This document shows positions 7,356 through 64,000 of a stretch of 64,000 bases of DNA, in pieces. Position numbers and translations under genes: made by a program. The DNA comes from Microbotryum violaceum (lineage: Eukaryota). The stretch covers positions 310,001-374,000 of the forward strand of contig CDLV01000013.1 of the NCBI GenBank assembly GCA_001244265.2, given 5' to 3'. Under the pieces are notes generated by a model. It saw only the letters and a list, made by a program, of their open reading frames with translations. It was not told the DNA's origin and did not search any database. Position 1 is the stretch's first letter. Each line of letters starts with the position of its first letter.

Positions 7356-7442
7356 AGAGGAAGCATTTGGCTCAGGTTATATTCGGTCAGCCGAGTCTTG
7401 CGGAAAGTCGCATCATGATTTTCGATCGATCACCGCTCGGAC

Positions 7443-11853
<4,411 letters not shown>

Positions 11854-39360: not shown

Positions 39361-39534
39361 TGTTGCAGGTGAAAGAAGTGGGGATAGGAGAACCATGGCA
39401 AGCTATGGCAAGTCGAGTCGACGACGCGCGCCAAGCAAGTTTCGCGCTCTCCTTTCCGCCCCCACTTGGCTCCACTTGGCTTGCGAAGGCCGATTACGTG
39501 TCCATTGCTCCGCACCGGCATAGACCCAGCAGCT

Positions 39535-41211
39535 ATGCTTCAACGACTCGCTACGGCATCAACACGGCGAGGCTGGCCTTCGGGTCCCTGCACATGTTCT
39601 CACACAAGACGCCAAATCTCTTCCTCCTCCTCTCCCCCGTCACCGTCCTCGTCCCCAGCGACCAGCTCGACCCGCCCGACCCGCCTCGGTCCCCCAATTC
39701 CTGACCTCCATCAAGTCCTCCACGATCCCGAAGCGGTCAAGCTCAACCTCAAGCGACGCAACTCGCCCGTCCCGCCCTCCGTGGTCGATGAGCTCCGCAA
39801 CCTCGAGCACCACACGGCCCGACTCCGCTCGCAACTCCAGTCCGCTCGAGAAAGGAGGAACCAATTGACCCTACTCAACAAGGATCGCGAGACCATGACC
39901 GATGCTTCGAGGGAGGAAGCCAAGACGATCAAGGAACGTATCAAGCAACTTGAACCGGACTTGAACGAGCATCGAGCTAGAATGCAGTTTCTCGCCCTCA
40001 GTCTTCCGAATCGATCACATCCTTCTTCGCCCGTCGGTGCGGAGGATCAGGCCAAGCTCATCAAGTATCTGGGACCCAAAGTTGCGTCGAACGAACAGAG
40101 GGTATCGCTGAAGGATCACGCACGGTTATGCGCAACCGATTTGGATTGGACCGATTTCCCAACGGCCTCGTTGATCTCGGGCAATTCGTGGCCCATGTTA
40201 AAGAACACAGGTGCCAAGCTCGAGTTGGCGCTTACACAGTATGCACTCTCGATCGCGCTCAAGAATAAATTCGAACTCGTCCTACCACCCGATGTCGTAC
40301 GCAGCGAGATCGCAGAAAGGTGTGGGTTTCAACCCCGGGATCAAGGCGAGGCACAGCAAACCTATTTTCTCGGTGACGGGGGTGAAAGACCGAACCAGAA
40401 CGACCTCTGTCTCGTCGGAACGGCCGAGATCCCTCTCGTGTCCATGAATGCAGGTCAAAACTTCCGTGCTGAACAACTACCCAAACGCATCGTTGGGTTA
40501 GGGAGGGCTTTCCGAGCAGAAGCCGGGGCGAGGGGTCAAGAATCCAGAGGGTTGTATCGGGTCCACCAGTTCTCCAAGATCGAATTCGTCATCGTTTCAC
40601 CCGACGACCAATCGCAGAGGCTACTAGACGAGTTGGTGAGGTTACAGATCGAGATTCTCTCGGGCCTGGGATTGAGCTTGAGGGTTCTCGAAATGCCGAC
40701 GGAGGAATTGGGGGTCTCGGCTCAGAGGAAGGTCGATATCGAGGCTTGGATGCCTGGGAGGGGAAAATGGGGTGAAGTGTCGAGCGCCTCGAATTGCACG
40801 GATTGGCAAGCGAGGAGGTTGTTGATGCGGTACAGACCTTCCGGGAAGGAGCAGGAGACGGAAGGGATTAGGAAGGAACAAGGGAAGGAACTTGAAGACC
40901 TCAACATTCCTACACCGGCGGCATTGGAAGCGACGGCGCTTTATCCATCTCAGTTCGAGAATCCAGCCCCGGCCTCCTCAAGTGGAAGCGGAAATGTGTG
41001 GTGTCATACCCTCAATGCGACGGCCGCTGCGATCCCTAGGCTCATCGTCGCGATCATGGAGAATGGCGTCGTTTTGGACCGAGAGGGCAAGGTCGAGAGG
41101 GTTCGGTTGCCGGGGTGTTTGAAGAGGTGGTGGTTGGAAGGTGGCAAGGCCGATGAAAGGATAATAGAATGGGTGGATGAAGGAGAGGCGCCAAGTATTA
41201 GTAGCGAGTGA
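39535..41211 (+). CDS. DIA4: Seryl-tRNA synthetase, mitochondrial type
   Basis: Targeting-like N-terminus, coiled-coil arm, LVGTAEIP, FRAEAG..RGLYRVHQFSKIE, DIEAWMPG, EVSSASNCTDWQARRL, HTLNATA. Confidence 0.93.
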   Translation: MLQRLATASTRRGWPSGPCTCSHTRRQISSSSSPPSPSSSPATSSTRPTRLGPPIPDLHQVLHDPEAVKLNLKRRNSPVPPSVVDELRNLEHHTARLRSQLQSARERRNQLTLLNKDRETMTDASREEAKTIKERIKQLEPDLNEHRARMQFLALSLPNRSHPSSPVGAEDQAKLIKYLGPKVASNEQRVSLKDHARLCATDLDWTDFPTASLISGNSWPMLKNTGAKLELALTQYALSIALKNKFELVLPPDVVRSEIAERCGFQPRDQGEAQQTYFLGDGGERPNQNDLCLVGTAEIPLVSMNAGQNFRAEQLPKRIVGLGRAFRAEAGARGQESRGLYRVHQFSKIEFVIVSPDDQSQRLLDELVRLQIEILSGLGLSLRVLEMPTEELGVSAQRKVDIEAWMPGRGKWGEVSSASNCTDWQARRLLMRYRPSGKEQETEGIRKEQGKELEDLNIPTPAALEATALYPSQFENPAPASSSGSGNVWCHTLNATAAAIPRLIVAIMENGVVLDREGKVERVRLPGCLKRWWLEGGKADERIIEWVDEGEAPSISSE

Positions 41212-46318: not shown

Positions 46319-49300
46319 CTAAAACGCATCGTCGCCGACCAGGGTCCCAAACAACCCTAATTGATCACCATGATTCGCCGCCTCGTTACCGCCTTGGTTC
46401 ATCGCAAAGATCGAAGCGAACAACATATCTTGTTCCTTCCCTACATCAACCGTATTGAGCGTCGGATCCCACTGCCAAGGTAAATCGAACGCGAGCAGAC
46501 CGAATTCGGACGCGCTCGTTGAAATGGCCGGGTTCGGATCCGTCCCGTTACCTTGGTGCGGAGGATGAGGGTTTGACGAGTTCTGCGCATGATGATGATG
46601 TCGCGTGTCGAGAGGACCATGCATGTTGATCGTTTCGCCAAAGACGGACATGCTGTCACCTGCTGTACCGCCTGAAGGGGTAGCACCTTTCATCACCGAG
46701 GTCGGGTCGTCCGCGGTCGCAGGATCGATGGGCACTTCGCCCAAGACTGAATCGTTGTCGCCGTGGAGACCGTGCATGGTCGCTGGTACGGTCGCGTCAT
46801 CGACGATGGCGAGTCCTCGAGGTGAAGGCGGATACGACGGCTGCGTAGGGTCGACTAGACCTTCTTCTGCCAGCACCGCGGGTACGCATTGCGCCTGCAG
46901 CCGGGTTAGGAGTACCGAAAAACCCCTAGAGATGTGCTCGGCGTCGACAGAGGCGTGCCGCAGTGCGCCGATGCCTTGCTCCAGCAAGCCGATGGTCTTG
47001 GATTGGCCATGCTCGACGACACCAACAGCCAATGCCTTGAACAAGAATGTCGCGGCGAACATGATACGCTGGAATATACGGGAAGGGCATAGTCTGAGGT
47101 AGCCTTTAGGTTCGAGGAAGATGACGGTCTGTTGGAGGATCGCTTGCGCCGCAGCGAGAGCATCGATAATCCAGGGTCCTTCTTGTAGGTTGAGGAGCGA
47201 CGGCGACACAAAGAGGAGATCATTCGCCTGCGGTTTGTCACAGTAATCAGTTAGTCTATAGTGAGAAGCGAGTTTGTGCTCTGGCTACCTACCTTGACTC
47301 GTCTTCGAAGACGTTCCTGCAGAGCTCGAAGCGCAATGGCATTGCCGTAGAGGCGGATGTAATCAATCTCTATTCTCAAAAGGGTCGATTCGACATTGCC
47401 TTGCTCTGAGATGGAGAGTCACGAGACCGTCAGCGGGAGTCGACATGTTCCAATCTAAACAACTCTCACTCACTCAAAACGCCTTTGGTCTTAGTGGCCA
47501 TGCTCCTCAACTCGTGGTCCAAGCTCCTGATGAAGCTCTCCCAATGGCCCGTCCTAAGCAGACTCCTCGTGATCTCCTTGTTGGGGTACAGTCTTTCCTG
47601 GATGGTGCCCATCAAAGCCGCTAATAAACCCTGCGGCAACGTCCGCTCGGCCCACAATTCGTTCAATCCACGCTTCTGCACATCCAAACTGGCTCGCTGG
47701 GTGACCTTTTCCCACCATGCGCTCGACATGTACGATTGGACGACGGCGTTCCTCCCCAAGCGAACCGAGACGTGTCGATCGGCATTGTAGCAATAGATCC
47801 AAGCGCGGAGAATCCTCTCCGATTCCCAAGAAGGGCCATCACCGTCGCGCGCATCCAAGCCGTACAAGGCCGTGTTGTGCATCCCTAGCTCTTGCGCTAG
47901 ACGAACGGCGAGTCCGAGGTAGGTCCATGACATCGAGTCGTATTGATTGCTCGTCTTGAGAGCTTTCGACGTCTCGCGTTCGCCTTCGTCTTGATCCTCA
48001 TCGGCTTCCTGACGTGCCAAAGCTGCATCGGTGCGATGGATCAAGGGCGATGACGGCCATTCAGTCAGAAGGAGCAAGGCTTCGACGCTTGAGATGTGTC
48101 GAAGCGATGACGTTCCATCGAGAAGATAGATCAACTCTTGCCGGATCCACGCCGCGCACAGAGCATGGATCTGCGCGGCTCGATCGGGGAGCAGAATCGC
48201 AGAGTATCGAGCGGCGATGGTGATGACGGCGCAGAGCAGTAGCGATTCGGTCGAAGTCAAGATGGCGAGATGCGACAGGTGGAAAATATTTGGTGATAGT
48301 AAGGGGTATAAAGGAGCCATCTCGGCTTCGAAGCTGAATAGATCGAGGGAATGTCAGCTGCAGAAGCGATGATATGGAGTACGAGCCATGTTGGAACACT
48401 CACAAGGAGAACAAGACCTCGGCTTCAGGTTGCGTAAGTAGACCCTCGGCGATGGGAGCCCAGTTGGACCACCCTCCGAGCTTGGCGACCCGAGAAGGTG
48501 ACATCCTCCCAGACTGATGGCTTTCTTTCCGGTGCAGAACGGCCCCACCTTGAGGCGTCGTCGTTCCTCCAACTTCCACGTCAGGCGAAGCAATGAGACC
48601 ATTCTGGTGACTAGGCGATCCATCTCCCGAAACAGTCGATCTCAGACTCGAAGCCGTAGCCAGTAGCCTCAGCGCGTCGGACGGGTTGTGCAACGTCGAA
48701 GCGAGCAAGACTCGACTGTTGCCCGTCCGGTTCCGACTGCTCGCTCGAGACCCGTCCCCCCGAGCTCGTTCGACAGCTTCTTCGAGCGTCACATCCTCGA
48801 CCGGTCCGCCATGTACCCCGTCCTCCCTGCCCTCTTTCCCTTCAAGGTCATCAAGTTCGTCTTCCTCATCTCCTTCGTCGATTGGTGGGGGTTCATAGTC
48901 TTCGGCCTTGCGTCGCTTCGATTCATGTGGGTTCTGTTCGCTCGATCCGCTCGCTCTGGAAGATAATGCAGGTCGAATATAGGTCGGTGCGGTCATCGCC
49001 GGCAGATTCGTTGGCGTCGGATGAAGTTGACGTGTCGGCAACGAAAGCGGCGACGGCATGAAAAACTGCGGTACCGCTGGTCCCCGTACGAGCGCACTCG
49101 GCGAAGGTAACCTCGTCCCTGCCATCAGAGCTGCTGCAGCATGATGTGGGGAGTACATGCTTGGCGTAGCCGCCCAAGCTGGGATTGATCCAGGGGCCAT
49201 CCCCAACAAGGGGAAGCCATACGGGTTGGCGACGTCGAACTGGACGTGCGCCGAGGTCGAAGCTGCGGAGCCCGCATCATGTGGGCCAGATGAGACGGGT

Positions 49301-50406
49301 GGTAGTGCTGGCTGCGAGTGATGATGATTTTGCACATGTGACAAGTGGGATGGTGGTTGCTGCTGCGCGTGCTGTGGTATCGGCAGATTCGACGCGGTCG
49401 GATCGGCGGGCGTGACCGAGCCCGCAGACGGTGCCGACTGCCCTCCGCCTCGACTGGGAAGCAGTTCAAAGTTGCGAGCGGGTCTCGGGTTGAATATGCA
49501 GTCACGCGATTCCCTTCTGCATCTGCGACACGGCCCCTCTGACGGTGCATCGGGGTCTCCGAGGTCGCATTTGAGTTTGCGCTGATGAAGGGGCAGTGAG
49601 AGGCGAGCGCCCAAGGGGTACGAAAAATGGGGAAAGTCAGCTGACCCCGATCCCAAAATCTGGGGAAACGCGCCCTGACCGTAAGCGTGCTCGAGCAGCC
49701 GTTGGTCGATGCAGTCATCACAACGGCGCGAAAGAAGGTGATGGGCATATTGTATGATCCAGTACGTCGTGGATGTCGCCAAGTCGAGAGCCTGGCTGGA
49801 ACGGTCTGTCTCCGTTTCATCCCCAGTGCTGCCACTGGCTCACGGCGATGTCGTCGAGTGCCTGCTCTCGCCATTGTTGGCTGCTGGTCGCAAGTCCAAC
49901 ACATGCCGCGACGATCCATTCGTAGCTCATGAACTAACCGATCGACAGGGAAGACCTGAGCGTTGACGACATCATCAGAGAACGAGGTGTGCAGGTTCGG
50001 CGTCGAGCGGAGAAGATCGCGAGATTTGCGTAGACCAGAGGCAAGCAAACGCGGGGTGGGGGCGGGTCCGACGGTCAGTCACAGGTGCTCCGGTACAGGA
50101 ATCTGACCGCGGGTACTCACAGGCCCGGTAGGTTCGTTTCGGCTTTCTGGAAAACACTTCGCCCGTGGAGTCGCTGGTGCTCTGCCTGCGTGCGAGGCCC
50201 GTCTGTGGAGCTGGGCCCGCCGAGCCGGGTCCGGAGCGAGCTGCACGACCACCACCGGAACGGCCGCCGTGACTGGGAGCCGCAGCGGATGAGGACGATT
50301 CGTCGGAAGAGGACCCGTAGTTGTGGTGATCTCTATCTCTGCCCCTGTCTCTGTCCCTGTCGCCGTCCTTGCCTCGTATGAAGGGTGCTATCGGTCGAGG
50401 CGACAT
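46319..50406 (-). CDS. Aro80-like Zn(II)2Cys6 transcription factor
   Basis: Spliced [76 protein letters not shown]. Confidence 0.88.
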
Positions 50407-51693
50407 GGCTGCTCAGCGCTCAGCGCTCTGAATTGGCGTCACGCCCCGGTGCGACACGGATCCAACCAGTGAACGCTGTGGTGCCCGCCTGCCTGTGCGA
50501 ATGGGACCCGTTGGCCTGGGGCAGGCCTGGGCCCGGCGTCCAGCTATGGACACTCCAAGTCAACGGACTTGATCGAAGTTAAACGGGCCTTAGTGGAAGA
50601 CTTGCACGAGCATCTACATCAGAAGAGGGGGGTGCACGCATTTCACACCGTACCATTGTACCATCCTTCCCCGTGGGGCGCTCGGAGTCGTCTCCCTCAC
50701 TCACCGGCGTTGAGACATATCACACATAGGAGCGCACAACAAGGAACTCGGCTCAAGAGGTCAGAGCTCGTCGATTAGCTCGGGCCGAATATTCGCCCAA
50801 CGGCCCGTTTCCGAGTCGAATACTGGTGACTCGACATGGCGTGGTACTCGAGTCATCTATCCAATCGTTCATGCCCAACATCTTATCCTCCCCTTGCTTC
50901 AAGCTAGGACGCCGCTGCACTCTTGACTTGCAGACCTACCGGTCCCACCCCCACTCGCGTGCAATTGAATGATCCTCAATTCGGAGGCGGTGCTCGGCGC
51001 GCGGCTGCTGGCTACGATCGCCAAGCCGGGACGGTCGTGCACCTCTGGCTATATATATAAGCACACTAAAAAGTGGCGCGCGCCCTGCAACCCGGGTTGC
51101 TGGATGGCCCGAGGACTAGCGCAACACGGAGGCTGGTGTGGCCTTCAACACGTTCATCTCAGGTACGTGCGAGCTCGTATCGGGGTAATCCAACCTTATA
51201 AATGCTGCCATTGCGTATAAAGCATATTTGGAACACTCATCCTCAATTTCTCCTTTAGATTAGTAGCGAGAAGAAGCTCGATTAGAACATCATTACATCA
51301 TTACATCATTAGCGGAGGGGACAAGGTAGCATTGATGGAGGTGATTAGGTCACGTGCCGTCTCACCACGCTGGCAGAACGAGCGAGCCGTAGCGAGCCTG
51401 AGCGCGAGCGAGCGATAGCGTTGCCGCTTGACGCGCCGTTATCGATCACAGTCCTGGTCTTACTACTTTCTGTTCCCTTCCGCTTTCGGTCGTATATCTT
51501 GACTCGAAGCCATCCGACCATACGATATGTTGCCTCTCCTGTCTGCTCCCAGTAACGCGTCAGCGTTTGCCGCTCCCGACCGTGAGACGCGTCCTCGTGT
51601 CTTGATTGTTTTGTTATTGTCTGCTGACCCTACTCCTCATTCCTCGCTGTTACCGCCGAAGATGCTTCGGTGCAATCGACCAGCAGCCCCGAA

Positions 51694-53388
51694 ATGGGGT
51701 CTGTACTGTCGTCCTCAGCGACCGTTCAGACACAACAGCACCACATTTCTGCTTCCAGCATCGCGGAAGATGGACGAAGCACGACGCTCGCCTCAAGGCC
51801 GACCACGTCCAACTCGTCCAACTCAATGAGTCATCGAATCGAAGAGGTTCAGGATGAGATCTGAGCCCTCCACGATGCCGTTCGAGCGTTGCCTTCGACT
51901 TCGCGCCTGTCATCCTCGCAAAAGGAGATCCACGTGCTCTATAACTTGCAACGTCGCCTCGAAAAGATGCAATACTGTTTGTGGCATGGAGTTCGGGACG
52001 ACGATCTCGACTCGTACACGCCCCCTGCGACTCGAAGCAACGACCGAAACGACTGGAATGACTTCAAGACCAGCCGCTTCTTCCGTTGTCTCCTCGAAAA
52101 GAACGGACTCGAGGGTAAGTGTAGCGTCTGCCTTCCTGACTCATCCCAAAACCGCTTACTCTCCATTACAAGACGCTACTCTGACAGACAAATCCATCAC
52201 TCGGACCCCTACAAAGTCCCGAAAGACTTCTCTGCGCTACAGGCGATTGGATCACGCTACTGGGAACAAGTCAAAAACTCACCAGAACTCTGGGAACAAT
52301 GGAAGGAAGCGAGGGCAAGTGAAGCGCGTGATCGAAAGGAGACCGCTCGGCCCCTCAAGCGATGGCGAATCGATTCTGCTACCATCTCCAAACTGCGGCG
52401 CAGATACGAAAATGCGATGAACGAGCTGGTCCGTGAAGCCTCGGCTCTCCGTTTCCGCCTCCTCAGAGGCCAAGTTCCCCCTGCTGACTTACGTAGCTCG
52501 GCACCGAATTAGGTTGAGCAGTATGCTGAGGGCTACGGCTTCGACGCGTTAGTCATCGTCAGCTCGAACAAGCTCGAGAACAAAAATGATCGTTTTATCG
52601 TTTCTACGCTTGGCGGCGCAGCTTTCATGCGGCGCCAAGGCTGGGATTCTGACCAGCAAAAAGATATTCTAGTCAACTTCACGGATTGCGTTAATGGGAC
52701 TCGGTTTAATCAGGAGCAAAATGAACAATATAAGATGCGGGGTTTGTCAAGCAAGCTTTAGGACGTATTTTGTGCTCGGTGATGGATTGGCGCTGATCCC
52801 AAATTCTGATGAGCAGCTAATCATGGCGATGTTGACAAGGCGTCTCAACGAGTGCTCTGCGCATGGTATAGCATCATAATCGACGATCACTATAGTGAGC
52901 AACCATTCCACGGCTCTGCGCCCACATTTTGCAGCCTAGTACTGAACATCTGTGGCCGTGCAGATCAAGCGCTCCGTCGTCGCCACCAGAGAAATAGATC
53001 TACTCAGCCCTACGTGCTTTCCAAGCTTACGAGTTATAACCAGGCAACTCTTGCGAAGGATCCAATCGCTCTTATTGTCGAGTTCGGAAATGGTCTTCAA
53101 GAGCGTGATTTCTGCAGTCCCACAAATGGCAAGAAGCCGACCGTTGCGGATTTGAGAAGAATCATCCCTCTGATGCGACAGGGTGGCCTTACTTTCTCAC
53201 TCAAAGAGGAGATAGGCCAGGGCTCTTTTGACCGCACTCGTGCCGAAGGTACTGTGACAACCGGACAGTTGGAAACGGAGCCAGAAGACCAAGTCTCTGG
53301 ATCTGGTTCTGATTCTGCTTCTGATCTTGGTTCTGATTCTAATTCTAATTCCGATTCTGATGCTGATTTGGGAGCTGCAACATCCTGA
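51694..53388 (+). pseudogene. KDZ cargo gene 1: divergent HMG-box-like protein with premature stop
   Basis: ORFs 51670..51864 and 51889..52512 share a frame across TGA 51862-51864; RNDWNDFKTSRFF...FSALQAIGSRYWEQVKNSPELWEQWKEARA is HMG-like; acidic S/D tail. Confidence 0.55.
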
Positions 53389-53415
53389 TTCCGAATCCGA
53401 CTACATTTCTGTTGT

Positions 53416-54348
53416 TCAGTATATTGTTGGTGCGCCTATCGCGCGTTGAGATAGATGGCCAAACTTTTTGTAGTCGTTGAGGTGATATTGACCTGTGTGT
53501 GGCAAGAGGTATTCAACAAGTTTCCACGCATCTTGACTAGCTGATTCGTCCGTTGATCAATTATGCGACGCGATTTTGATCGCAAAGCAAATAGATTTAC
53601 TGACGCCTAACGTTTCAGACTTTACTCCGGACATTCAATTCAGGCATTTAATGGATGTCCAAATAAAGCACTCACGCATCCTACCTAATGTCAAACTGCA
53701 GTTAAGCTCGCCCCAGAGCTTGGGGGTGACAACAGCAAAGCACCCAAATTTCTCCGACTACCCCTTCGGCCCCCGAGACGCCGGCGAAGTGAGAGCAGAA
53801 CCTTCAAGCTGTCGAGAATGTCCGTAATAACACGCTTCGCGTTGGGTTCTCCAAACGGTGTGCCCGCAGTGAAAATGAAAGCCGAGATTATTCGTTGACG
53901 CTGGAACAATAGATATAAAACAGAAGCAGGGAACAAGGTAGTTCGGCAGTTCTGACCTGCAGACGCAAGATCGCAAGGTGTCCGAGCTGGCCAGCTGACC
54001 ATATGTGCCAGGGAAATACGACGCTGCATTACGCGTAATCAATGCCTTTTCTGCTGAATTGTCAATGGAAGGGCGCGTAAACTCGGCATCGCAGCTTGGT
54101 GCTGAGGCGTCAATGACTTCGTAGTAGCAAAGCTCGTTGTTGGCCGAGTCGCTTGCATACACTGCAAGCTTTCATATAGGTCCGACGCGCTCGGTGCCGA
54201 CTACGTATTCAAGTTGCTTCCCGCCTGGGACAGGCAATGTGCCAGGTGGCCAGTATATCTTGTCTCGTGCAAATACTCGATGACCTTGACCTTTGTGCCC
54301 TGCAGAGAGAATCGCTGATTGTAACTTGTCGTGGTTCGCTGAGGGCAT
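53416..54348 (-). pseudogene. KDZ cargo gene 2: unknown protein with premature stop
   Basis: ORFs 54172..54465 and 53758..54162 share a frame across TGA 54172-54174; plausible GT-AG introns continue to RQRIISAFIFTAGTPFGEPNAK...; 3' end approximate. Confidence 0.45.
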
Positions 54349-54516
54349 CGGATCGGATCGGCTGTGACGCGCGCGGTGTCGGTGATGCTGTGAGAGGAGA
54401 GCGCGCGCGCTCGGTGACGTGAGGTGACGCGAGGCGCGACGTGTACCCCCGGGGTACGTACACATTGGGACACTGCCCTTTCCCTCTCACCCCTCACCCC
54501 CACTCCAAGTTCCAAC

Positions 54517-55950
54517 ATGGCACCACGCGCCACCGAGGGCGAGCGCGCCTGGCTCGACATCGACTCGCATCTCATCCGTGACGAGTCCGGCCAATGGCGT
54601 GTCCGTTGTGAACTTTGCAACAAACACTACAAGCTGCCTGGAGGGTACAGGTCACTCGACGGACCAATTGTAGCACCGGAACATGCACATGAGGCCAAAC
54701 GAAACCTAAAAAAAAAATCATTCGTATACACAAGCGCGCGTTCAATTCGTCTACGGTCGACAGTCGGTACAGATGCAACGAGGCGGCGTTTGAGCTGATC
54801 GGTACCGACCGTGAGGTCCAAGCAGTGAGTGCTAGACAGCTTTCCCAGGAGATCAGAAACAAACTATGTGGAGTTCGGCTAAACCTTTGTTGATGTACTT
54901 ATCTGATCTGATTGGGGTTTTGGCCACCTAAAGAAAAGATACCGCCGGCAGTTGCAGGCCAAGCTTGACATGTTGGAGGCGCCGGGGAAAGCGGACCGTG
55001 CGAGGCACGACGAGTGGGCGGCGGAAAGGGCGCGTCGGCTGGTGATGGAACCCAAAGACATCATGACTCAAGACCCAATCCCCGAGGACGTCGAAAATTT
55101 TGACTATGAGGTCCGGGAGGAGATCGACTACGTCATGTGGCCTGTTTGGGATGAATGGGCAGGGTACAAAGGGAATGGACGTCTGCCTCGGAGCCTGTTG
55201 ACCGTGCTCATCCATTGGAGGAACGTGTTGTTCGATGCATACGATAACCAGAAGCGAAAGAGAGGTGGAGGGAGTGCGAGAGTTTTGAAGGAGTATAGGA
55301 CCCGCACCCAAGACTTCGACGATATCCTCGCGCGCATCTTCACCGTCCCCGTCGACATTGCCGCCGAACATGAGGAATTGCGCCTATTCAGTGAAATCCT
55401 TTCATTCCTGTACCAAGAGTGCCAACGCCCCCTCCCTGAGGACGATGTAAGGACCGACGAGGACCAGGAGAGGGAGTGACCGCCTTTTAAGATGGATCCG
55501 AGAGGTGTACCGCCCTTTTCTCGGGAAACGTGTCCCGGACGATTACCGGGATCAGTTAGAAAGCGAACATCGCACCTGGCAAGCAGCGCTCAGACCATTT
55601 GCAACGACGGTGCTTGTCAGGAGTAGGTCCAAGCTTTACCACTAGCCTACGCTGACCTCAAAAAGGTACGATATCCACTCTGAACGGAGTGGACAGCTTG
55701 GTACTATGTATGGCCAACCCCCAGTGAAACGAGCTAGGAATTGCAGGATTACTGGTTCATGACAGTGCTCGTCCACGTTCCCGAACCTCCCAAGCCGCCC
55801 ACCGATGCGGACCGAGAGCCCGAAAGGAAGAAGATCTGGGACTCCTGGATTGTTGAGTGTGCCCACAGGTGGTTGGCGCTGTTGAGCAAACAGAGGGAGA
55901 CGTATCGTTGGATGCGCAAGAGGGGTCCAGCGGAGAGGGTGCCGCGTTGA
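54517..55950 (+). pseudogene. KDZ cargo gene 3: N-terminal C2H2/BED-like zinc finger plus helical domain
   Basis: MAPRATEG...VRCELCNKHYKL...PEHAHE; frameshift in A-run ~54708-54717; continues via ORFs 54952..55479 and 55741..55950. Confidence 0.55.
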
Positions 55951-56531
55951 CCTCAGGGGCACGAGAGGAGGACGCGATATCGGAACAGAGTTCGGCGACA
56001 GGCCAACATTCCAACCACGGATCAGTAGCCGGCTCGGAGGCCAAAAGCAACCTCTCCGCCCTCTCCGAGCTGACCAGCCTGAGCAAGCTGGAGCGCGGCC
56101 TGGATACTGGGACATGAGGCACCATGAGTGTCAATTCACCAGTTAGGCAATGACCGTCTCGAGTTTTCCGTGAGCGTGTGTAGCCATCTAGCTTGTATGT
56201 TATGTCAATGGAGATCCTGCATTGCAACCATGATTCACCCCGAGGGTACAACGCACTCCGAAGGCGGAAATTCTTGTTCAATTTTTAACCTTAGGGCAGG
56301 GCGTAGATACACTACAACAGAGTCCCGCGCCTCCGGAAATGAGGAAGCGGTATGCGACGACATGCTTCATCAATTCTAGGACACTCTTAACAAGCACTGT
56401 ACAACCGGCGTGGCGATGTGTACCCGCCGGAGGTACACACGACCGGTGCCCTCTCCAGCTGTGTACTCCCGGGGTTCCACGGCTCAGGCGCGGTCCGTCG
56501 CCGACGTCCTTGCTGACTGCACTACAACAAA

Positions 56532-57350
56532 CTTCCACGCACCCGTTCAGAGCTCAGGATGTGTCTGCAGTTACTGAATGGAACACCCTCCTGCGACGAA
56601 ACCGAAGAAATATTCGTTTGCTACATCCGACTTGCACTCTGAAAAGCCCGCAAGGCCCATGCACTTCTCTAACTGAATCTCGGTTCGAACCACCGAGCAG
56701 AGCGAAACTGCACTAGAACAATCTTCCACGCACCCAATCGAAGCTCAGGATGTGTCTGCAGTTACTGAATGGAACACCCTCCTGCGACGAAACCGAAGAA
56801 ATATTCGTTTGCTACATCCGACTTGCACTCTGAAAAGCCCGCAAGGCCCATGCACTTCTCTAACTGAATCTCGGTTCGAACCACCGAGCAGAGCGAAACT
56901 GCACTAGAACAATCTTCCACGCACCCAATCGAAGCTCAGGATGTGTCTGCATTTACTGAACGGGATACCCTCCTGCGACAAGACCGACAAAAGATTCGTT
57001 TGCTACATCCGACTTGCACTCTGAAAAGCCCGCAAGGCCCATGCACTTCTCTAACTGAATCTCGGTTCGAACCACCGAGCAGAGCGAAACTGCACTAGAA
57101 CAATCTTCCACGCACCCAATCGAAGCTCAGGATGTGTCTGCATTTACTGAACGGGATACCCTCCTGCGACAAGACCGACAAAAGATTCGTTTGCTACATC
57201 CGACTTGCACTCTGAAAAGCCCGCAAGGCCAACGCACTTCCCTAGCTGAATTCTTCGTTCGAATCAGCCTCCGAGCAGAGCAGAGCGAAACTGCACTACA
57301 ACGAACTTCCACGCACCCGCTCAAAGCCCAGGATGTGTCTGAAGTTGCCG
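56532..57350 (+). repeat. 191-bp tandem array inside KDZ element (4 units + partial)
   Basis: CTTCCACGCACCC...CAGGATGTGTCTG recurs at 56532, 56723, 56914, 57105, 57306. Confidence 0.93.
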
Positions 57351-58190
57351 AAAGGATTCACCTCCCGCCGTTGGAGACTCGTATATGTTATTATACAGTG
57401 ATCTGCCACCGGTGACCGACTTTGCACCCCCGGGGGTACACAAGGCGCAAGCGGGAAAGCGCCTGTGTACTCCCGGGGCACGCAGGACTGGTCCACTCTT
57501 CCGCTGTGTACTCCCGGTAATGATCACACCCGCGCGCCGAATGACTGTGTACCCCCGGGAGTACACAGCTTTGTCGGCGGCACAGGCCGGGTCCCTCGGG
57601 TTACACTCTTGTACTCTTGTCGCGCGCCGACTCTGTGTATGTGTACCCCCGGGAGTACACAGCCCCTACAAGGTCCTTGGCCGATGGACCAATATCCCTG
57701 CTCACTCGACTACATAAACTATCACGTCAACGGAGTAGGTATGCGGTGACGTATTTCATTGATTTTTGCTGACATATTATCGCAAGCACTGTACAACGGA
57801 GCGCCGTTGGACGCGTCTGGACCCACTTCGGAGTGCTGTTGGAACAGAACAACTACAGCAACACCAATCCTCACCGCCCCCCGCCCCCTCTGGCAACGTT
57901 CCCAAACCTGAACCTGCAAATGTCAGCACCGATGCGCACCAAATTTTAGTCTTTAACTTAGCAGAACCTTCAAGCTTGTCACGTACTGCAGTTCGGTGAG
58001 TGTGGCGGCGGCGACCGGCTCGTGGGATCGTGGTCGTCAACGCGTCAACGCCTGATTAAGGCTGACATTCATTTTACTTTTGTGCACTGGCGTCCACATT
58101 CTACCATGTGTGATATGGGCCGCATACAAAAAGCAAATTCCTTCAATAACAAATATTCTACAGTCAACAAATGCGCCAAACCATCCCTAG

Positions 58191-61100
58191 CTAGCCCATG
58201 GGCTCGTCGAGAATCTCGAGGTCGTCCGAGTCTTCACCCCTTGTCGAGCCTGACTCTCCGCCGCCCTCCCGAGCTCAGCATCATCTTCTTCCTCGACCTC
58301 CTGCTCCGATAGTGAACCCAAAAGTTCTTCCATTCGTCTTTCATACACGTCGTCACGGTCTCGCTCGGCCTGCTCCGTGGCTGGATCGGGGGTCAGGCCA
58401 AGTTCCCTTCGGAATGCGTCGAGGTCGATGGTTGTGTGGCGCACGTCCACGGCAGAAGGACCTGATGAGCGGCGGCTCGACTCAGTGACGAGGCTCTGCA
58501 TTTGAGTATTATTTAGCGTCGAAAGGCGGCGACCGAAATGACGTGGACTACCGCGCGACCGGCGCGACACCTGTTTCGCCCGTCCGGCGAAAACTCCTCC
58601 GATCAAACCGAATGCCGTGGGCCGAGATTCATGAACTGCGGGTAAACGGGTAAACGCATTCTGAACCAGACAACCGAGAGATCATCGCATTCGGCGAGCC
58701 GATCCAGACGCTCTTTGACCAAAATCTGCCGGCGCTGAAGCACATACCACACCGCAGTGCCAACCTCGCCCGCGCCGTCAGTTCCGAGAAGTTTCTTAGC
58801 CGCTTCGATCGTTTCTTCGGGAACTCATAGAAGGGGCGACGTAAGGTACAGCACCAACACAAAGAAAGGGTGTGTCCATCTCACCTCGGTCCTCTGCCCA
58901 TGCCTGAGATACCCTAACAAAGCGAGTGTCCTCATCTTCGAGCCACGCAAGTAGTTGTCGAACCTCAGCTCCGATCCGGAGAATCTCTTCTTCCGCCCTG
59001 GCTTTGAGTAAAACCGCCTTGATCCCTTTCTGAACATCGGTATCAATCGCCCAAGGCGCAGTGTCGTGTACGAAAAAACCGTCTTGCCAGAAAGCGTCCG
59101 TTGGCGACAGAGTCACAAGCGACTTAATTGTGGTAGCGAGCGGTAAGTTGTCCAGAATCTGGGCCGATTGCTCGGTCGCAGCATTTCGGTAATCCCCGAC
59201 CGCTTTATTGTACATATCGATTGCCACTTTTACTTTCTTGCTGTGCGTCTGTGAGACGCTGACAAGCTTGCTGGCTTCGACTTGACCGATTGTCGCGCCG
59301 CTTCGTCCCCGACCCATTGAGTCAATTCGTTCTTGACAGCATTGCAATTGGACCGTCGCTTTGTGTAATGCGCGAAGTTTGACTACGCAGTTGCACAAAT
59401 GCTGGAAATCTAGGTATGTCATGGGACATCAACCATCAGGTGGCGATACTCATAAAGATAGGACGCGCGCCGCACCTGAAGCTGCAAGCTCCTTCGTGCG
59501 ATCGTATTCTTGTTGGTAAGCTCTTAGCTGTTGCTGCAAGCGAGCCTTCGCTTCATCGGAAGCCATTGGATCGAATCTGAACACACAATGCCAAGACACA
59601 GTGTCAATTTTACGCCCTCGTCCTCCAATGGGGTTTGACGCGCCGAACGTACAGCCTTTCTTCCACGTGGTGTAGCCTCTGTACAATGTTAAACAGCTCT
59701 AATCGCTCCTTGTCCTCGTTCTCCCGACGTTGACCCGCCGGTGTGGCCGCTTGAACAGCTCGTTGTAAATCCCATTGCGCGAGAAGGTCAGACTCGGACC
59801 ATATTGCCGAAACGTCACTCAGATCAGTTTGTGCCCTTCCAAGCTGATCTTGAGCATTCGACAGTCGTCTGCGGAGCCAACGGCCTAGAATGGACGATGA
59901 ATGAAGGGACCGCACAATTAAGTAACGAACACGGCGTGAAAGTGTGGATGGCAGAGCATACCGAGGCTGTCAACACCGTTCTTGTTCATCAGGTCGATGC
60001 GACGCGAGATGTTGACGCGCCGGTGAGAAGCGCTCGCAGGACGATTGATCGGGATGAGCGATCGGAGCTGACTCCAAACGCGTTCGCATCCCTCCCCATC
60101 CGTCAACCCAAAGTGCTGAATCAGGCGCGGGTTGTACTCAAGCTGGCAGGGCCATTGATGAGCAAAAGCATGAAACACGCTCGTGGCAAACTTCAATCTC
60201 GGAAACAGATCGGGAAGGATACTTCTCTGCAGGCGATCGAAGTACAGTACAGGTCAGCGGCGCCCCAGGGCCAGAAATCTGAGAAACGACGGATCCGCCA
60301 CTCTTGCTGACCGATTGCATGTAGCCGTCCAAATTACACGCAACATCATACAGCACTCCGAGTGTATCGTTGGAAGGGAGTTGGTTCGAAATATGTTGCA
60401 GCAGCGATAAGCCATAGTAGCGCCTGCCTCATCAAAATCGAGCGTCAGGCCTTGTAAGCGGTTGAAAGAGGAGCTGAGCTGACGAACTTTTCGCCTGATT
60501 GATACAAATTGACCATCTTCAACGCGATATCGTGACGGCAAACACAGGCAACTAGGCCCGTATCGGACTTGCCCCGCGAGATTTGTTTCACACCGCCGTT
60601 GGCCGCTTTCCACGAATCGGCACAGGCCTTCAAGACGCGAGAGGAAGGGCGTCAGCGCGTTGAAAGGATCGCAGGGGGCGGCTCGGATCAGCGGACCTTT
60701 TCTGACTTCTTGCTGTCGCCACCATCACAGATCTCCTTCATCGATTCGAGCTCGCCTTCGCCGATGAAGAGGGCTGGCGTCGACTCCTGAAAATCGTGTT
60801 TGGCTGAGGTGTCGCGAGAATGTTGGAAGTTGCCATCCAGAGCGACAAGATGCTGCACTTCGACTCTATGGTGGGCTTGATTTAGACGCGTCGATCCGTA
60901 GCATGCTGGACACTTATCCGAGAGAGAACCCGCGACACCGAGGACGAGGTCGCCCAATTCTCGCTCGGATGTCGTGAGAGCCCGAAATTCGTCAAGGGCG
61001 CGCTGGAGTTGCTTTCGCAGCTCCTTGTCCTGCGCGAACGATGATAAATATCAGATAATGATCAATAGCAACCATGACAGGGGGTCGAGCTCACGAATTT

Positions 61101-62111
61101 ATGCTGACAGGCCCGGCCGACCCCATCCAGTTTGCTCATAGAAAATGTCGAGCCCGCGAGCTGCTCCATCAACAGGAAACGGCGCGGTGCTCCACCAGGA
61201 GTCGAGGAATTGTACAAGTCGAAAGGTGAAGGCAGAGCGAGGAGCAGCTGCGGTCGATCCGATCAATCCGATCTGAGCAAGGCGCTCGGCGTACGTAAGG
61301 CATGGGCTATCGCTGCTGGATCTCGGACAAAAAGCGATCGGTACCTCGACCATTGCATCGATTCGACCTTGTCAGCGCGTTATTCGACACAGTGACCCAA
61401 CTTGCCTTATTCACATACAGCTTATGAGGTCGTACACGTCAAGCAGTAATGTGAGGGGGCTCTCGCATGAACAAGGCGGCGGCACTTCGCTAGCGACCGA
61501 ACCCTGGCACAGCTCCTCGTCCACGTCAATCAAGGGCCGTAGATGACCTTTGACCCCAGCGCAAAACGCGATATACTGGCGCAGAAGCGCTGGCCGTTCT
61601 AAGCTCCTTAGACGAGCGTCGTTGAACACAAACTGCTTGTACGTTTCTTTCTTCGACTGACCACGTGTGGCTGGTTCGAAACTTTTGACTTGGCGCAGAT
61701 CAGCCAATGATAATCGCTCGGCGGTTGCAATATAGTCAGGCGCGATTGGCATACGGGATGTTCGATCCGAAAAATATGGGGCCGGACTAAAGTCACGTTC
61801 ATGGCCACCACCGTACTCGCTGTGACGTTTATCATCCCAATCCATCCCACTCGGGTTGGCGGCTTCGTCGAAATCGGCCTGAATCGGAGGGGCCATTGGA
61901 GGCCGAGGAGACGGCGAGCTAGCTTCGCCACGAGCATGTTCATTGAAGGTTCTTTGCTGAATTTGGCGCGCAGTGTACGTAACCATGTGCCGGGTTCCGG
62001 GGATGTTGGTGCGGCGTTGAGGGTCCGAACGAAGGCGTCGGGCTTATAGTCAGGATGTCCCTCGAAGTAGTCAGGTCGGAACTTGAAGCGATTCCATTTA
62101 TGCCTGCCCAT
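58191..62111 (-). pseudogene. KDZ transposase (CxC-type Cys cluster + RNase H-fold core), frameshifted in this assembly
   Basis: CSC..C..C, CPACYG, LVALDGNFQH, TGLVACVCRHDI, LYDVACNL, VFHAFAHQWPCQLEYNPR, GLTDGEGCERVWS, RAEEEILRIGAEVRQLLAW. Confidence 0.92.
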
Positions 62112-62483
62112 TGTCTGATGCAAATCCGAGAATGTATTACTGTGTGTTACAATAGTTGGTGCTCGTGTTAGAACTGAGGCGGGTCTGATTTGGCGCTGAG
62201 CGGGGGAGGCTAGAAGAGACAGTTCTGTGGGCGATTGCACAAGTACTCCCTAATAATAGGTCAATCTCATTAGCAAGTTGCCCTAGTCCTGGGGCCATCC
62301 AGCAACCCGGGTTGCAGGGGGGGCAACATGTATGCCACTTTTTAGCGTGCTTATATATGTAGCCAGAGGTGGACGGTCGCACGTCCCTCTCGCTCCTCCC
62401 TCCTGTCACCTCGAGCGCTGCTTATCTTCTGCAGCCTCCTCATCCCACCCCGCTCCGACCTCTCTGCTATTGGTACCTCTTTC

Positions 62484-64000
62484 ATGTCTTGTATCCGCCC
62501 TGCTACGCCAGGTAAGTCGTCATTGATCGAGCCACACTGTGCAACCCCCGTGGCGAGTGCGCATGTACTGAACCCCGCGCTGCCCGTCTCCGTCTCCGTG
62601 TCCCCCCCGTCACCCACACCCCACGCACCCCGTCACACACCGACGGACTGTTCGTCTCCGTCTCCGCGCTCGCTTCCCACTCTCTCGCAGGCACGGTTGT
62701 CGTTCTTGCTGGTACTGTTGTGAGCTCAAGCTCATTCGAAAAAGAAGATACCGTCCTACTGCGGTGCTGATCCTCCTTGTTGGTTTCCCGTCACTCACAG
62801 CTCTTGGCGCTCGTCTCCGTGTCGGTGCCGATCCTCAAGCCATTCTACTTCCTCAAAGCCGAGGTCGCCAGCAACGAGATCATCCTGGGCGTGTGGGGCT
62901 ACTGCTCAGGTTCCAATTGCACTCAGCCCAAGCTTGGCTATGCACTTGGTCAGTGCAGTCCCCATGACCCGTCACTGCACATCCCGGCCTCAAACTGACG
63001 AGGGCCCGACGGGCGATGACGATCATTCACCATGCACCAGATCTGGCCCACGTATTCGGTTATTCGGGAGTCGATGGTATCGCTTTGACCGAGAGTATCC
63101 CCAATGCGCTCGTCAAGGGACTGACCTACGTCCTCGTCCTGCACCCCGTCGGTACGTCTCCTACTTACCCCTCGACTCGGCTCGGGCGCCTACTATCCAA
63201 GTTGCTTCGGGTCTGCTGCAAACAGAAACTTTCATCGCTGATCACGTACTTTGTGTTTGAATACAGCCGCCGTCTTTGGAGCCACCTCTGTCCTACTCGG
63301 TCTTTTGGCGCACATCCGAGGCTTCGGAGGGACATGTTGGACCACCTTCTTCGCCTCGTTGGGCGCCTCGACCGCACTCCTCGCTTTCGCCATCGACATG
63401 GCTCTCTTCCTCATCGCGAAGAAGAGGATCACGTCCAGCTCCGTCGGAGGTGCAGCTAGTCTGGGTGCGGCATTATGGATGACGTTGGCGGGAGGATTGC
63501 TGCTCATGGTTTCGGGTTGTTTCTTCGGCGTAAGTAGTTGTTTGTGCTGCTAGATCACATCGTGGAGTATCAATCGGAGGTCATACATAGTCTAATCTAA
63601 CAATTTTTATACACCTACTCTAGTGCGGTGGTCGAATGGTCACCGATCGGGCCTCGCGTCGAGAAGACTCAGAAAAGAATAGGCCCGGACCGGATCCGGC
63701 CTACAGTGAGCACATGCGCAACTCAGCCTACCAGCAACAACAATACAACACTCGGAACGGGGGTAACAACCTGCCCACGTTTGCCGAGTTTCATAACAGC
63801 GAGGCGATACCTCTCAATCAGATGGGGGAGAAGAACGATTTCGATGACGACGTGAACGATGCAGGATACGTCGGGAGGGCGCCGTATCGGTCGGGTGGAG
63901 CGGCCGTAGCTGGTGTCGGACAAGGGTACGGACGACGTAATGATGGTCCCGTCCTGACTGGCGGAGGACCAACCTCGCCCCAACGATACAACAGCCCTTC
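62484..64000 (+). CDS. PalI/Rim9/Sur7-family membrane protein (runs off window end)
   Basis: MSCIRPATPG, LLALVSVSVPILKPFYFL, LGVWGYC....CTQPKLGY, LTYVLVLHPV, AFAIDMALF, LGAALWMTL. Confidence 0.85.

What the first reader, a model, noticed from the sequence alone, without database searches (positions are those of the whole stretch)
51030..62379. Complete four-gene KDZ transposon with defined ends and uncharacterised cargo, but no TET/JBP
Seen: TIRs and a TSD bracket 11.3 kb holding a KDZ transposase (D in LDGNF, D in YDVAC, E in GEGCER) and three further genes arranged ->,<-,->,<-, plus a tandem array and a repeated palindrome. Established: fungal KDZ elements are known for association with TET/JBP dioxygenases and HMG-like genes. 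Inference: this family carries a different accessory set (HMG-like, unknown, Zn-finger), possibly a self-contained regulatory or anti-silencing module. It is the best candidate for an undescribed system here.
Basis: partly seen in the sequence, partly recalled or inferred. Interest (0 to 1): 0.8.

Follow-up and report, generated by a model that had tools for sequence, protein, structure and literature searches.

The report
Four-gene KDZ transposon, dead copy
This is a real 11.3-kb cut-and-paste jumping gene of the anther-smut fungus Microbotryum that carries three extra genes beside its transposase, but large multi-gene elements of this kind are already known in fungi and this copy has all four genes broken.

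Summary
Inverted repeats of about 90 bp and an 8-bp target duplication (GACGGTCG) bracket an 11,334-bp element (51038-62371). One run holds the uninterrupted target site. The minus-strand gene is a KDZ transposase: four exons cover positions 2-215 of the 217-position Pfam model. Seven introns are supported by RNA-type contigs.

Three further genes sit on alternating strands. Each has annotated homologues only in Microbotryum species, and these often carry neighbouring locus tags. No TET/JBP domain was found.

- Gene 1 matched no Pfam family, HMG box included. An exhaustive search gave 14 hits; the 10 named were all Microbotryum.
- Gene 2 is a truncated N-terminal piece of a primase-polymerase-like (AEP) gene.
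- This copy is dead: a nonsense codon in gene 1, an internal stop in gene 2, frameshifts in gene 3 and in the transposase.

A 4.4-kb non-autonomous derivative with an inverted middle lies at 7443-11851, and its junctions recur in a DNA run.

Large KDZ elements with long inverted repeats, 8-bp duplications, unknown extra genes and no reported TET gene are already described in Cryptococcus. I rate this a new member of a known kind. What the accessory genes do remains inferred, and nothing supports an anti-silencing role.

The parts
51030..51037 (.). Left target-site duplication GACGGTCG
   Evidence: The uninterrupted target with a single copy is seen in a run X16 contig (table 5c).
51038..51125 (+). 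Left terminal inverted repeat. It starts TGCACCTCTGGC and contains the palindrome CCTGCAACCCGGGTTGCTGG.
   Evidence: Flanks of other copies diverge just before 51040 (table 7). Copy 2 has an extra 51-bp GC-rich segment after the position matching 51083.
51527..53388 (+). Accessory gene 1 (about 530-577 aa in homologues). GT..AG introns at 51582-51661, 52429-52512 and 52742-52816. This copy has TGA at 51862-51864 where the other copies laid read CGA.
   Evidence: 51862 T>C in runs X16, X18 and X8 (table 3).
53691..54348 (-). Accessory gene 2: truncated AEP/primase-polymerase-like fragment (about 180-210 aa in homologues). This copy has an in-frame TGA at 54172-54174 and lacks three residues (HYI) in the motif-I region.
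54434..54454 (.). One copy of the GTACNCCCGGGNGTAC-type palindrome, in the divergent region between the gene 2 and gene 3 start codons
54517..56117 (+). Accessory gene 3 (about 450-458 aa in homologues). N-terminal C-x2-C...H-x-H motif and an acidic Ser-rich tail. This copy has an extra base at 55471 (frameshift). Both window copies shift frame near 55917-55932.
   Evidence: 55471 is left out in X16, X18 and X8 (table 4).
56516..57346 (.). Tandem array, 191-bp unit x 4.3, non-coding (each unit ends in a stop). About 1.4 units in copy 2.
56416..57663 (.). Clusters of the palindrome TGTGTACYCCCGGG(R)GTACACA on either side of the array (56416-56480 and 57420-57663)
58603..62111 (-). KDZ transposase gene, about 923 aa from the Met at 61986 (possible earlier start at 62111). 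Nine introns: 61368-61418, 61030-61094, 60628-60696, 60424-60487, 60227-60311, 59885-59961, 59577-59652, 59410-59475, 58824-58884. This copy has a 2-nt deletion at 61107/61108 and lacks one base at 62039 relative to copy 2.
   Evidence: (tables 5 and 5c).
62277..62371 (-). Right terminal inverted repeat (ends ...GCCAGAGGTG)
62372..62379 (.). Right target-site duplication GACGGTCG
7443..11851 (.). Second, 4.4-kb non-autonomous copy of the same family. Order: [62371->61554 reversed][55249->58774][51577->51040 reversed]. The middle is inverted relative to the ends, and gene 1, gene 2, the 5' half of gene 3 and the transposase core are missing. TSD GCTCGGAC.
   Evidence: The same junctions 51574|58774 and 55249|61554 are seen in runs X18 and X8 (table 5).

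Best explanation
Window 51038-62371 is one copy of a multi-copy, recently mobile cut-and-paste DNA transposon of the KDZ (Kyakuja-Dileera-Zisupton) superfamily in a Microbotryum genome.

Shown:
- It has TIRs of about 90 bp and an 8-bp target duplication.
- A spliced, transcribed transposase gene carries a complete KDZ DDE-type domain, preceded by a CxC1-like cysteine cluster.
- Three further genes travel with it: gene 1 (a Microbotryum-only protein family), gene 2 (a truncated N-terminal fragment of an AEP/primase-polymerase-like gene) and gene 3 (an N-terminal Cys/His motif and an acidic tail).
- This copy can no longer supply any of its proteins: nonsense codon in gene 1, stop and 9-nt deletion in gene 2, frameshifts in gene 3 and in the transposase. 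It could move only in trans.
- The family also gave rise to a 4.4-kb derivative with an inverted middle. Its junctions recur in run contigs.

Inferred:
- The transposase excises and inserts the element by DDE chemistry with staggered 8-bp cuts.
- Genes 1 and 3 are element-specific helper proteins that bind DNA or recruit the transposase, perhaps at the CCCGGG-centred palindromes. This is by analogy with TnpA of En/Spm and the Myb-like protein of PIF/Harbinger. My odds for this step alone are about 0.35.
- Gene 2 is an inactive remnant or captured fragment, not a working primase.
For: Ends and mobility:
- TIRs, TSDs in two copies and the uninterrupted target site.
- In DNA run X8 the flanks have word depth about 25 and the element bins 77-690. 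Gene-1, gene-2 and transposase-core bins lie at 175-272, and the two bins over the 5' half of gene 3 at 127-135 (table 2). The tool warns that depth is not copy number.

Transposase:
- Four exons match the KDZ model collinearly over positions 2-215 of 217.
- Seven minus-strand GT..AG introns rest on joints in the RNA-type runs: five laid cleanly and two after a small re-reading. Two of the seven are also in X19, and none is in DNA run X8.
- With these introns and an X at the 2-nt deletion, the frame runs open for about 923 aa.

Cargo is real and travels together:
- Gene 1 gave 8 hits, gene 3 gave 17 and gene 2 gave 7. All are Microbotryum and none has a Pfam domain on record.
- Locus tags are adjacent or two apart at six loci: C007g04361/04363, C002g01816/01817, C002g01471/01472, C032g11123/11124, Chr5-2g08075/08076, Chr2-1g04307/04309.
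- Gene 1 has diverged paralogues at 23-31% identity in four species, with shared conserved blocks. That argues for long-term protein-level constraint.

Gene 2:
- The longer relative P0031 (350 aa, 67% identical over the shared N-terminal part) scores 0.97 by features (208 of 256 shared) to primase-polymerase / AEP_C962R clusters.
- Its Atlas model aligns to PrimPol-type clusters at TM 0.62 and 0.60.
- The window holds only residues 11-161 of it.

Lesions in this copy.
Against: - Adjacency of the transposase to the cargo in other genomes was not tested directly. My three homologue searches went to the cargo genes.
- The 'RNA' label of X16, X18 and X19 is the tool's guess. I rely on the spliced joints.
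- The CxC1 match (22.1-24.5 bits) is below Pfam's cut-off of 26.9.
- Both structure predictions failed: gene 1 mean pLDDT 44.5, P0031 32.3. No fold evidence of my own exists for any cargo protein.
- The AEP reading rests on one source plus motifs that I recall, not on a tested alignment. Pfam, PHROGs and PDB sequence searches of P0031 found nothing.
- No result shows what genes 1 and 3 do.
- Gene 1's low-copy paralogues (for example the P0039/P0048 pair, one per species) could be host genes. Capture from the host cannot be excluded.
- Both window copies share a frame shift before the gene 3 tail, so that tail may be dispensable.
Confidence: 0.8

Rival explanations
1. The cargo is passive. Genes 1-3 are host gene fragments or whole host genes picked up by the transposon (transduplication, as in Pack-MULEs and CACTA elements) and do nothing for the element.
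For: Gene 2 is plainly a truncated piece of a longer AEP-like gene that exists elsewhere (P0031). It carries a stop in this copy, and in the M. silenes-dioicae annotations an intron is drawn across that stretch. Gene 1 has low-copy paralogues that look like one-per-species genes (P0039/P0048).
Against: Genes 1 and 3 are full-length and keep conserved blocks between species at 51-75% identity. They keep their order and orientation at several loci in two other species. RNA-type contigs cover them at depths of 20-631 in X16. The gene 2 core is about 90% identical between the M. saponariae copies and this one by my count of about 51 aligned columns. That is more than neutral decay would leave if gene 1 diverged to about 60% over the same time.
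Confidence: 0.15
2. One reading: the three accessory genes form a self-contained regulatory or anti-silencing module that protects the element from the host's RIP-like mutation, methylation or RNAi. It would stand in for the TET/JBP genes of other KDZ elements.
For: Only circumstantial. Other fungal KDZ lineages carry TET/JBP genes thought to counter methylation (PMC12730594, abstract and sections read). This one has none yet still carries three conserved genes. Pucciniomycotina, including Microbotryum, show hypermutation at TCG sites in repeats (PMC12730594, passage read).
Against: No domain, fold or homologue links any of the three proteins to DNA modification, RNA silencing or chromatin. 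This copy has accumulated inactivating mutations like any unprotected element.
Confidence: 0.05
3. The 11.3-kb unit is a composite: a simpler KDZ element into which an unrelated element or genomic segment carrying genes 1-3 was inserted. On this reading the four-gene architecture is an accident of this lineage.
For: The short derivative shows that large internal rearrangements happen in this family. A 155-nt segment (55610-55764), flanked by a short direct repeat, is present in both window copies but skipped in other contigs.
Against: No internal TIR or TSD pair brackets the cargo among the 25 longest inverted repeats. The same gene 1-2-3 neighbourhood recurs in two other species. Cargo-specific and transposase-specific bins have similar depth in DNA run X8.
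Confidence: 0.05

Closest known systems
Cryptococcus neoformans KDZ1, KDZ2 and KDZ3 (Dileera clade; Huang et al. 2024 bioRxiv 10.1101/2024.08.15.608186; PMC12810828)
   Same: - Basidiomycete KDZ elements of 9-11 kb with long TIRs.
- TSDs of 8 bp (KDZ1) or 4-8 bp (KDZ2/3).
- Transposase with a CxC1 cluster plus the KDZ domain.
- KDZ1 carries two further coding genes of unknown product, and the authors say the KDZ elements harbour extra ORFs without predicted domains.
- No TET/JBP gene is mentioned.
(Passages read.)
   Different: - TIRs of 139-241 bp there, against about 90 bp here (about 135 bp in the subfamily of copy 2).
- Three accessory genes here, one of them an AEP-like fragment.
- The hosts are in different subphyla.
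The exhaustive gene 1 search gave 14 hits and the 10 named were all Microbotryum. Shared accessory genes are therefore not supported for gene 1 at HMMER sensitivity.
- Mobility was shown experimentally there. Here it is inferred from an uninterrupted target site and several copies.
Zisupton-1_PGr of Puccinia graminis (a Dileera lineage; Kojima 2025, PMC12730594)
   Same: KDZ element in the same subphylum (Pucciniomycotina) with 8-bp TSDs (section 3.1.1 read).
   Different: That family encodes a TET/JBP dioxygenase. This one does not.
Kyakuja-1_LB and Kyakuja-2_LB of Laccaria bicolor (PMC12730594)
   Same: KDZ superfamily transposase.
   Different: Kyakuja makes 7-bp TSDs, has CA..TG termini, has no TIRs and carries TET/JBP (section 3.2.1 read). 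Here the TSD is 8 bp, the TIRs are about 90 bp and there is no TET.
Two-protein cut-and-paste systems: En/Spm (TnpA + TnpD) and PIF/Harbinger/Nuwa (transposase + Myb/SANT protein)
   Same: A DDE transposase travels with a second protein that binds DNA near the ends. Nuwa is described so in PMC12730594 (passage read). En/Spm is recalled. This is what I think genes 1 and 3 work like.
   Different: There is no sequence or fold relation, and the functional analogy is untested here.

Membership tests
KDZ superfamily DNA transposon | Transposase with the KDZ RNase-H-like domain (Pfam PF18758) | tested here: met
   Four consecutive exons match model positions 2-44, 53-98, 101-132 and 145-215 of 217. 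Two exceed the 26.6-bit cut-off on their own, at 39.9 and 80.6 bits.
KDZ superfamily DNA transposon | Catalytic D, D, E residues | tested here: inconclusive
LDGNF, YDVAC and GEGCER are present in the exons that align to the model.
KDZ superfamily DNA transposon | N-terminal CxC zinc-chelating cysteine cluster | tested here: inconclusive
   CxC1 (PF18802) scores 24.5 bits (E 3e-5) on the exon and 22.1 bits on the read-through, below the 26.9 cut-off.
Zisupton/Dileera-type KDZ (as against Kyakuja) | TIRs and 8-bp TSD | tested here: met
   with an uninterrupted target site. Criteria come from PMC12730594 (Zisupton and Dileera 8 bp; Kyakuja 7 bp, no TIRs).
Dileera clade | Placement in a transposase phylogeny with reference Dileera sequences | not tested
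Only indirect pointers exist: a CxC1-like cluster and no SWIM domain, as in the Cryptococcus Dileera-clade elements (10.1101/2024.08.15.608186).
TET/JBP-carrying KDZ elements | A TET/JBP dioxygenase gene inside the element | tested here: not met
   No Tet_JBP match in about 30 frames and exons of 51000-62400. The only stretch without an assigned gene (56.1-58.6 kb) is filled with repeats.
AEP / primase-polymerase (gene 2) | Three catalytic motifs (I: DxD/E; II: SxH; III: hD) in one AEP fold | tested here: not met
   The longer relative P0031 looks like an AEP. The element encodes only the part matching P0031 residues 11-161. It therefore holds the motif-I region (YIDAEF in homologues, shortened in this copy) but not the parts that I read as motifs II and III. 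The motif definitions are recalled.
   No HMG_box match in any of 12 family members at E<=1. Foldseek against the PDB gave no match at E<=0.001, on a model of mean pLDDT 44.5. A divergent HMG-like fold is not excluded.
   C34 and C37 are invariant in 7 of 7 homologues. The downstream H-x-H is present in 5 of 7 and missing from 2 annotations. No Pfam or PDB match.

The most novel reading that the evidence does not exclude
The truncated gene 2 is the relic of a time when this KDZ lineage carried a complete AEP primase-polymerase, like the 350-aa MVLG_06887-type protein P0031. If so, related elements that still encode it may exist in Microbotryum. That would be a DDE cut-and-paste transposon bringing its own primase-polymerase, for example to prime repair synthesis across the excision gap or the 8-bp staggered target gaps. 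The very high conservation of the retained N-terminal fragment between species would then mean it was kept for a purpose, for instance as a regulator.
Probability: 0.12. Interest if true: 0.7.

Novelty: new member of a known kind. Interest (0 to 1): 0.38.

Why it matters
KDZ elements are among the largest eukaryotic cut-and-paste transposons, and in Cryptococcus their jumps cause drug resistance. Nobody knows what their extra genes do.

This Microbotryum family offers a compact, well-delimited case:
- exact ends;
- an uninterrupted target site;
- a spliced, transcribed transposase;
- three accessory genes conserved across species;
- repeated palindromes that could be binding sites;
- a natural deletion-inversion derivative that shows which parts can be lost.

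That makes it a usable system for asking whether KDZ accessory proteins are transposition cofactors. The AEP-like fragment is a small new clue about what such elements have carried. None of this overturns current views, because multi-gene KDZ elements without TET are already on record.

Tried and rejected
- Whole genome: none is held for this window, so no genome-wide census of copies or consensus was possible.
- Earlier scan notes: nothing on this genome or these sequences.
- Pfam on cargo frames and on full-length homologues: nothing credible.
- PHROGs on P0031: nothing.
- PDB sequence searches with P0031 and with profiles of genes 1, 2 and 3: nothing credible. The best were annexin at E 1.1 and geminin at E 0.22.
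- hhalign of gene 1 against gene 3: no relation.
- AlphaFold2 of gene 1 (12-row alignment): mean pLDDT 44.5, pTM 0.29.
- Foldseek of that model against the PDB: 0 of 77 matches at E<=0.001. Three GTF2I-domain chains appear at E 2-7, and an Atlas row names GTF2I at 0.76. I treat these as noise.
- AlphaFold2 of P0031 (7 rows): mean pLDDT 32.3, unusable, so it was not sent to fold search.
- Complex prediction, transposase N-terminal exon with gene 3 protein: no verdict. Score 0.00, controls not run.
- RNA: no listed holder is on record as RNA. The runs that I call RNA-type are the tool's guess.
- Joint 60492->60572 in X16 (depth 15.2): rejected as an intron, because it would remove the conserved CRH...GEK block. 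I placed the intron at 60424-60487 from the reading frame alone.
- Joint 54823->54915 has non-canonical ends on this copy (AG..TG, or GT..GG if slid by one). The 155-nt skip 55610-55764 reads GT..CA and also appears, with only 25 letters on one side, in DNA run X8. Intron or indel is not settled.
- dN/dS between the two window copies: not computed. There are only 24 substitutions in the shared 1.27 kb.
- Papers: Iyer et al. 2014 (PNAS) could not be read. Its text and supplements may list Microbotryum KDZ genes or accessory domains.
- Searches of the held library for KDZ with primase, Microbotryum with Zisupton or KDZ, and primase-polymerase with DNA transposon and fungi found no description of this family. 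One search was uninformative.


Full report
**What is there.** The window comes from a Microbotryum genome. Read-through translations of the cargo frames are 96-98% identical in alignment to annotated M. silenes-dioicae proteins. No whole genome is held.

The inverted-repeat search finds two adjoining arm pairs, 51036-51077/62334-62375 (42 nt, 93%) and 51078-51125/62277-62324 (48 nt, 92%). Two motifs taken from the arms each occur four times in 64 kb, against 0.00 expected. The four sites are the ends of this element and of a second copy at 7443-11851.

GACGGTCG directly flanks the element on both sides (51030-51037 and 62372-62379). The second copy is flanked by GCTCGGAC. In both copies the same end carries two extra bases (TG) before CACCTC, so the termini are slightly asymmetric: TGCACCTC... 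and ...GAGGTG. The element proper is 51038-62371, which is 11,334 bp.

**Mobility.** Contigs of four public runs were laid on 49500-63499.
- In DNA run X8 a 15.4-kb contig and a 7.2-kb contig run from the flanks into the TIRs, so that strain has the same insertion.
- One contig of run X16 joins 51024 to 62371 with ten other letters. Read against the window, this is the uninterrupted target with a single GACGGTCG plus a 6-nt indel. The insertion is therefore polymorphic.
- Word depth in X8 is about 25 in the flanks and 77-690 across the element. The tool warns that depth is not copy number, but the contrast fits a multi-copy family. So do the 15 M. silenes-dioicae hits among the 17 to gene 3.

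**Transposase.** On the minus strand, four successive exons match Pfam KDZ (PF18758) collinearly at model positions 2-44, 53-98, 101-132 and 145-215 of 217, scoring 12.7, 39.9, 15.2 and 80.6 bits (first seen).

Five joints with CT..AC ends on the plus strand are minus-strand GT..AG introns. All five are in X16, two are also in X19, and none is in DNA run X8. Two more were recovered by re-reading joints that carried a few extra letters (61030-61094 and 59885-59961). Two were placed from the reading frame and splice signals alone (61368-61418 and 60424-60487).

With these nine introns the frame runs open from the Met at 61986 to the stop at 58603-58605, about 923 aa. This holds only if two bases are allowed at 61107/61108 (X at the break). 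The expressed copy in X16 has two more bases there (table 5c, row 61029->61108). This copy therefore carries a 2-nt deletion in the exon holding the CxC1-like cluster. That cluster scores 24.5 and 22.1 bits, below Pfam's 26.9 cut-off.

Copy 2 and the annotated chimera P0024 read straight through from an upstream Met (62111). Copy 1 lacks one base at 62039 relative to copy 2.

**Gene 1 (+, 51527-53388).** Three GT..AG introns are placed by homologues and splice signals. The first is also roughly supported by an X16 joint (table 5c).

This copy has TGA at 51862, where X16, X18 and X8 read C, giving CGA. The word-index search found 8 proteins, all from M. silenes-dioicae or M. saponariae, at 51-89% identity and with no Pfam domain.

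A profile search of 1.84 billion representatives found only 14 proteins. The ten that carry a name are all Microbotryum: eight looked up and two already named. They come from M. lychnidis-dioicae, M. silenes-dioicae, M. saponariae and M. intermedium. The other four were not looked up.

Paralogues at 23-31% identity share clear blocks, such as DRFIVS..GG.AF and DL.RIIPLLR. This is a protein family under long-term constraint, but restricted to the genus as far as HMMER can see.

None of 12 members matches HMG_box at E<=1. The AlphaFold2 model is poor (mean pLDDT 44.5) and gives no Foldseek match at E<=0.001. The Atlas places the protein nearest to unnamed Basidiomycota clusters (0.91).

**Gene 2 (-, about 53691-54348).** Seven homologues were found. 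Six are short (180-212 aa) proteins of element copies.

The seventh, P0031 (M. lychnidis-dioicae MVLG_06887, 350 aa, partial), is 67% identical over the shared N-terminal part and runs on for a further 190 residues. The Atlas scores P0031 at 0.97 (208 of 256 features) to 'DNA-directed primase/polymerase' and AEP_C962R clusters. All ten of the best named hits fall in one family or clan. Its stored model aligns at TM 0.62 and 0.60 to PrimPol-type clusters.

I read YIDVEF, SKLSFH and FDLVPY...YRLGGNSK in P0031 as AEP motifs I, II and III. That reading is from recall, not from a tested alignment. Sequence searches do not see the relationship, and my own fold attempt failed (mean pLDDT 32.3).

tblastn shows that the window holds only P0031 residues 11-161. 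The element's gene therefore keeps the motif-I region and lacks the rest. This copy also has an in-frame TGA and lacks three residues in that motif. Gene 2 is thus a truncated AEP-like fragment. Oddly, its core is about 90% identical between M. saponariae and this lineage.

**Gene 3 (+, 54517-56117).** There were 17 hits, all Microbotryum and none with a Pfam domain. The protein is about 455 aa, with an N-terminal C-x2-C...H-x-H motif and an acidic, serine-rich tail.

This copy has an extra base at 55471, which X16, X18 and X8 all lack. Both window copies shift frame near 55917-55932 relative to the homologues. No PDB match was found.

**Cargo travels together.** Locus tags of the hits are adjacent or two apart at six loci:
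- M. silenes-dioicae: C007g04361 (gene 3) and 04363 (gene 1).
- M. silenes-dioicae: C002g01816 (gene 3) and 01817 (gene 2).
- M. silenes-dioicae: C002g01471 (gene 3) and 01472 (gene 2).
- M. silenes-dioicae: C032g11123 (gene 1) and 11124 (gene 2).
- M. saponariae: Chr5-2g08075 (gene 1) and 08076 (gene 2).
- M. saponariae: Chr2-1g04307 (gene 1) and 04309 (gene 2).
I did not test whether a transposase sits beside them.

**Non-coding features.**
- A 191-bp tandem array of 4.3 units lies at 56516-57346.
- The palindrome half-site TGTGTACYCCCGGG gives 16 matches, nine in copy 1 and seven in copy 2. None lies elsewhere in the window, against 0.03 expected.
- One site lies between the gene 2 and gene 3 start codons.
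- The TIR holds a second CCCGGG-centred palindrome.

**The short form.** Copy 2 (4.4 kb) consists of the right end (62371->61554), then 55249->58774 in the opposite relative orientation, then the left end (51577->51040). It lacks gene 1, gene 2, the first half of gene 3 and the transposase core.

It fuses the transposase 5' region to the 3' half of gene 3. M. silenes-dioicae protein P0024 is such a chimera. The fused frame is broken in copy 2.

Both junctions (51574|58774 and 55249|61554) recur in X18 and X8, at depths of 213-282 in X8. The form has therefore spread. Copy 2's TIRs carry an extra 43-51 bp GC-rich segment.

**Comparison with what is known.** Kojima 2025 (PMC12730594; abstract and sections 1, 3.1.1 and 3.2.1 read) gives 8-bp TSDs for Zisupton and Dileera. 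For Kyakuja it gives 7-bp TSDs and no TIRs. This element fits the former.

Huang et al. 2024 (10.1101/2024.08.15.608186, passages read) and PMC12810828 (passages read) describe Cryptococcus KDZ1-3. These are 9-11 kb, with TIRs of 139-241 bp, TSDs of 8 bp for KDZ1 and 4-8 bp for KDZ2/3, CxC1+KDZ transposases of the Dileera clade and extra ORFs without predicted domains.

[quoted passage not shown] The architecture is therefore on record. What is new here is the family itself, its particular accessory set including an AEP-like relic, and the chimeric short form.

No paper in the held library describes it. Iyer et al. 2014 and all supplements were out of reach.

**Verdict.** It is a new member of a known kind, with interest 0.38. 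The function of genes 1 and 3 as transposition helpers is my inference, at about 0.35. The anti-silencing idea has no support.

Noticed in passing
window 6868-7356: A 489-bp fragment lies 87 bp left of copy 2's TIR. It is the short form's chimeric junction (55520->55249 reversed, joined to 61554->61770) in inverted orientation. It looks like a truncated third copy or a local inverted duplication.
   Followed up: partly
window 57529-58349: RNA-type contigs of two runs (X16 depth 693, X19 depth 46) cover the non-coding stretch downstream of the transposase stop. Both skip 57952-58132. It could be a long 3' UTR or a separate non-coding transcript. Cryptococcus KDZ1 also has annotated non-coding RNAs.
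   Followed up: no
window 55610-55764: A 155-nt segment inside gene 3, flanked by the near-repeat ACGGTGCTTGTC/ACAGTGCTCGTC, is present in both window copies. It is skipped in contigs of X16 and X18, and weakly in DNA run X8, as well as in annotated homologues. Its ends read GT..CA, so intron or insertion is not settled.
   Followed up: partly
window 51083 and 62333, against 7487-7537 and 11757-11806: Copy 2 and other genomic copies (loose ends in X8) have an extra 43-51 bp GC-rich segment inside both TIRs that copy 1 lacks at both ends. There are therefore two TIR subfamilies.
   Followed up: partly
window 53990-54150 (gene 2 core): The AEP-like fragment's core (DSANNENCYYEVIDASAPSC..IDA.F..PSIDNSAEKALITRNAASYFPG) is far better conserved between M. 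saponariae and this lineage than gene 1 as a whole, although the gene is truncated and interrupted. This is unexplained.
   Followed up: no
window 12000-15158, 18849-19832, 34345-35352, 39388-41211, 47466-48353: Ordinary host genes surround the two element copies: a PPR-repeat protein, an ANAPC2-like protein, a G-beta WD40 protein, seryl-tRNA synthetase and a fungal-specific transcription factor domain. Both copies therefore sit in gene-rich DNA.
   Followed up: partly
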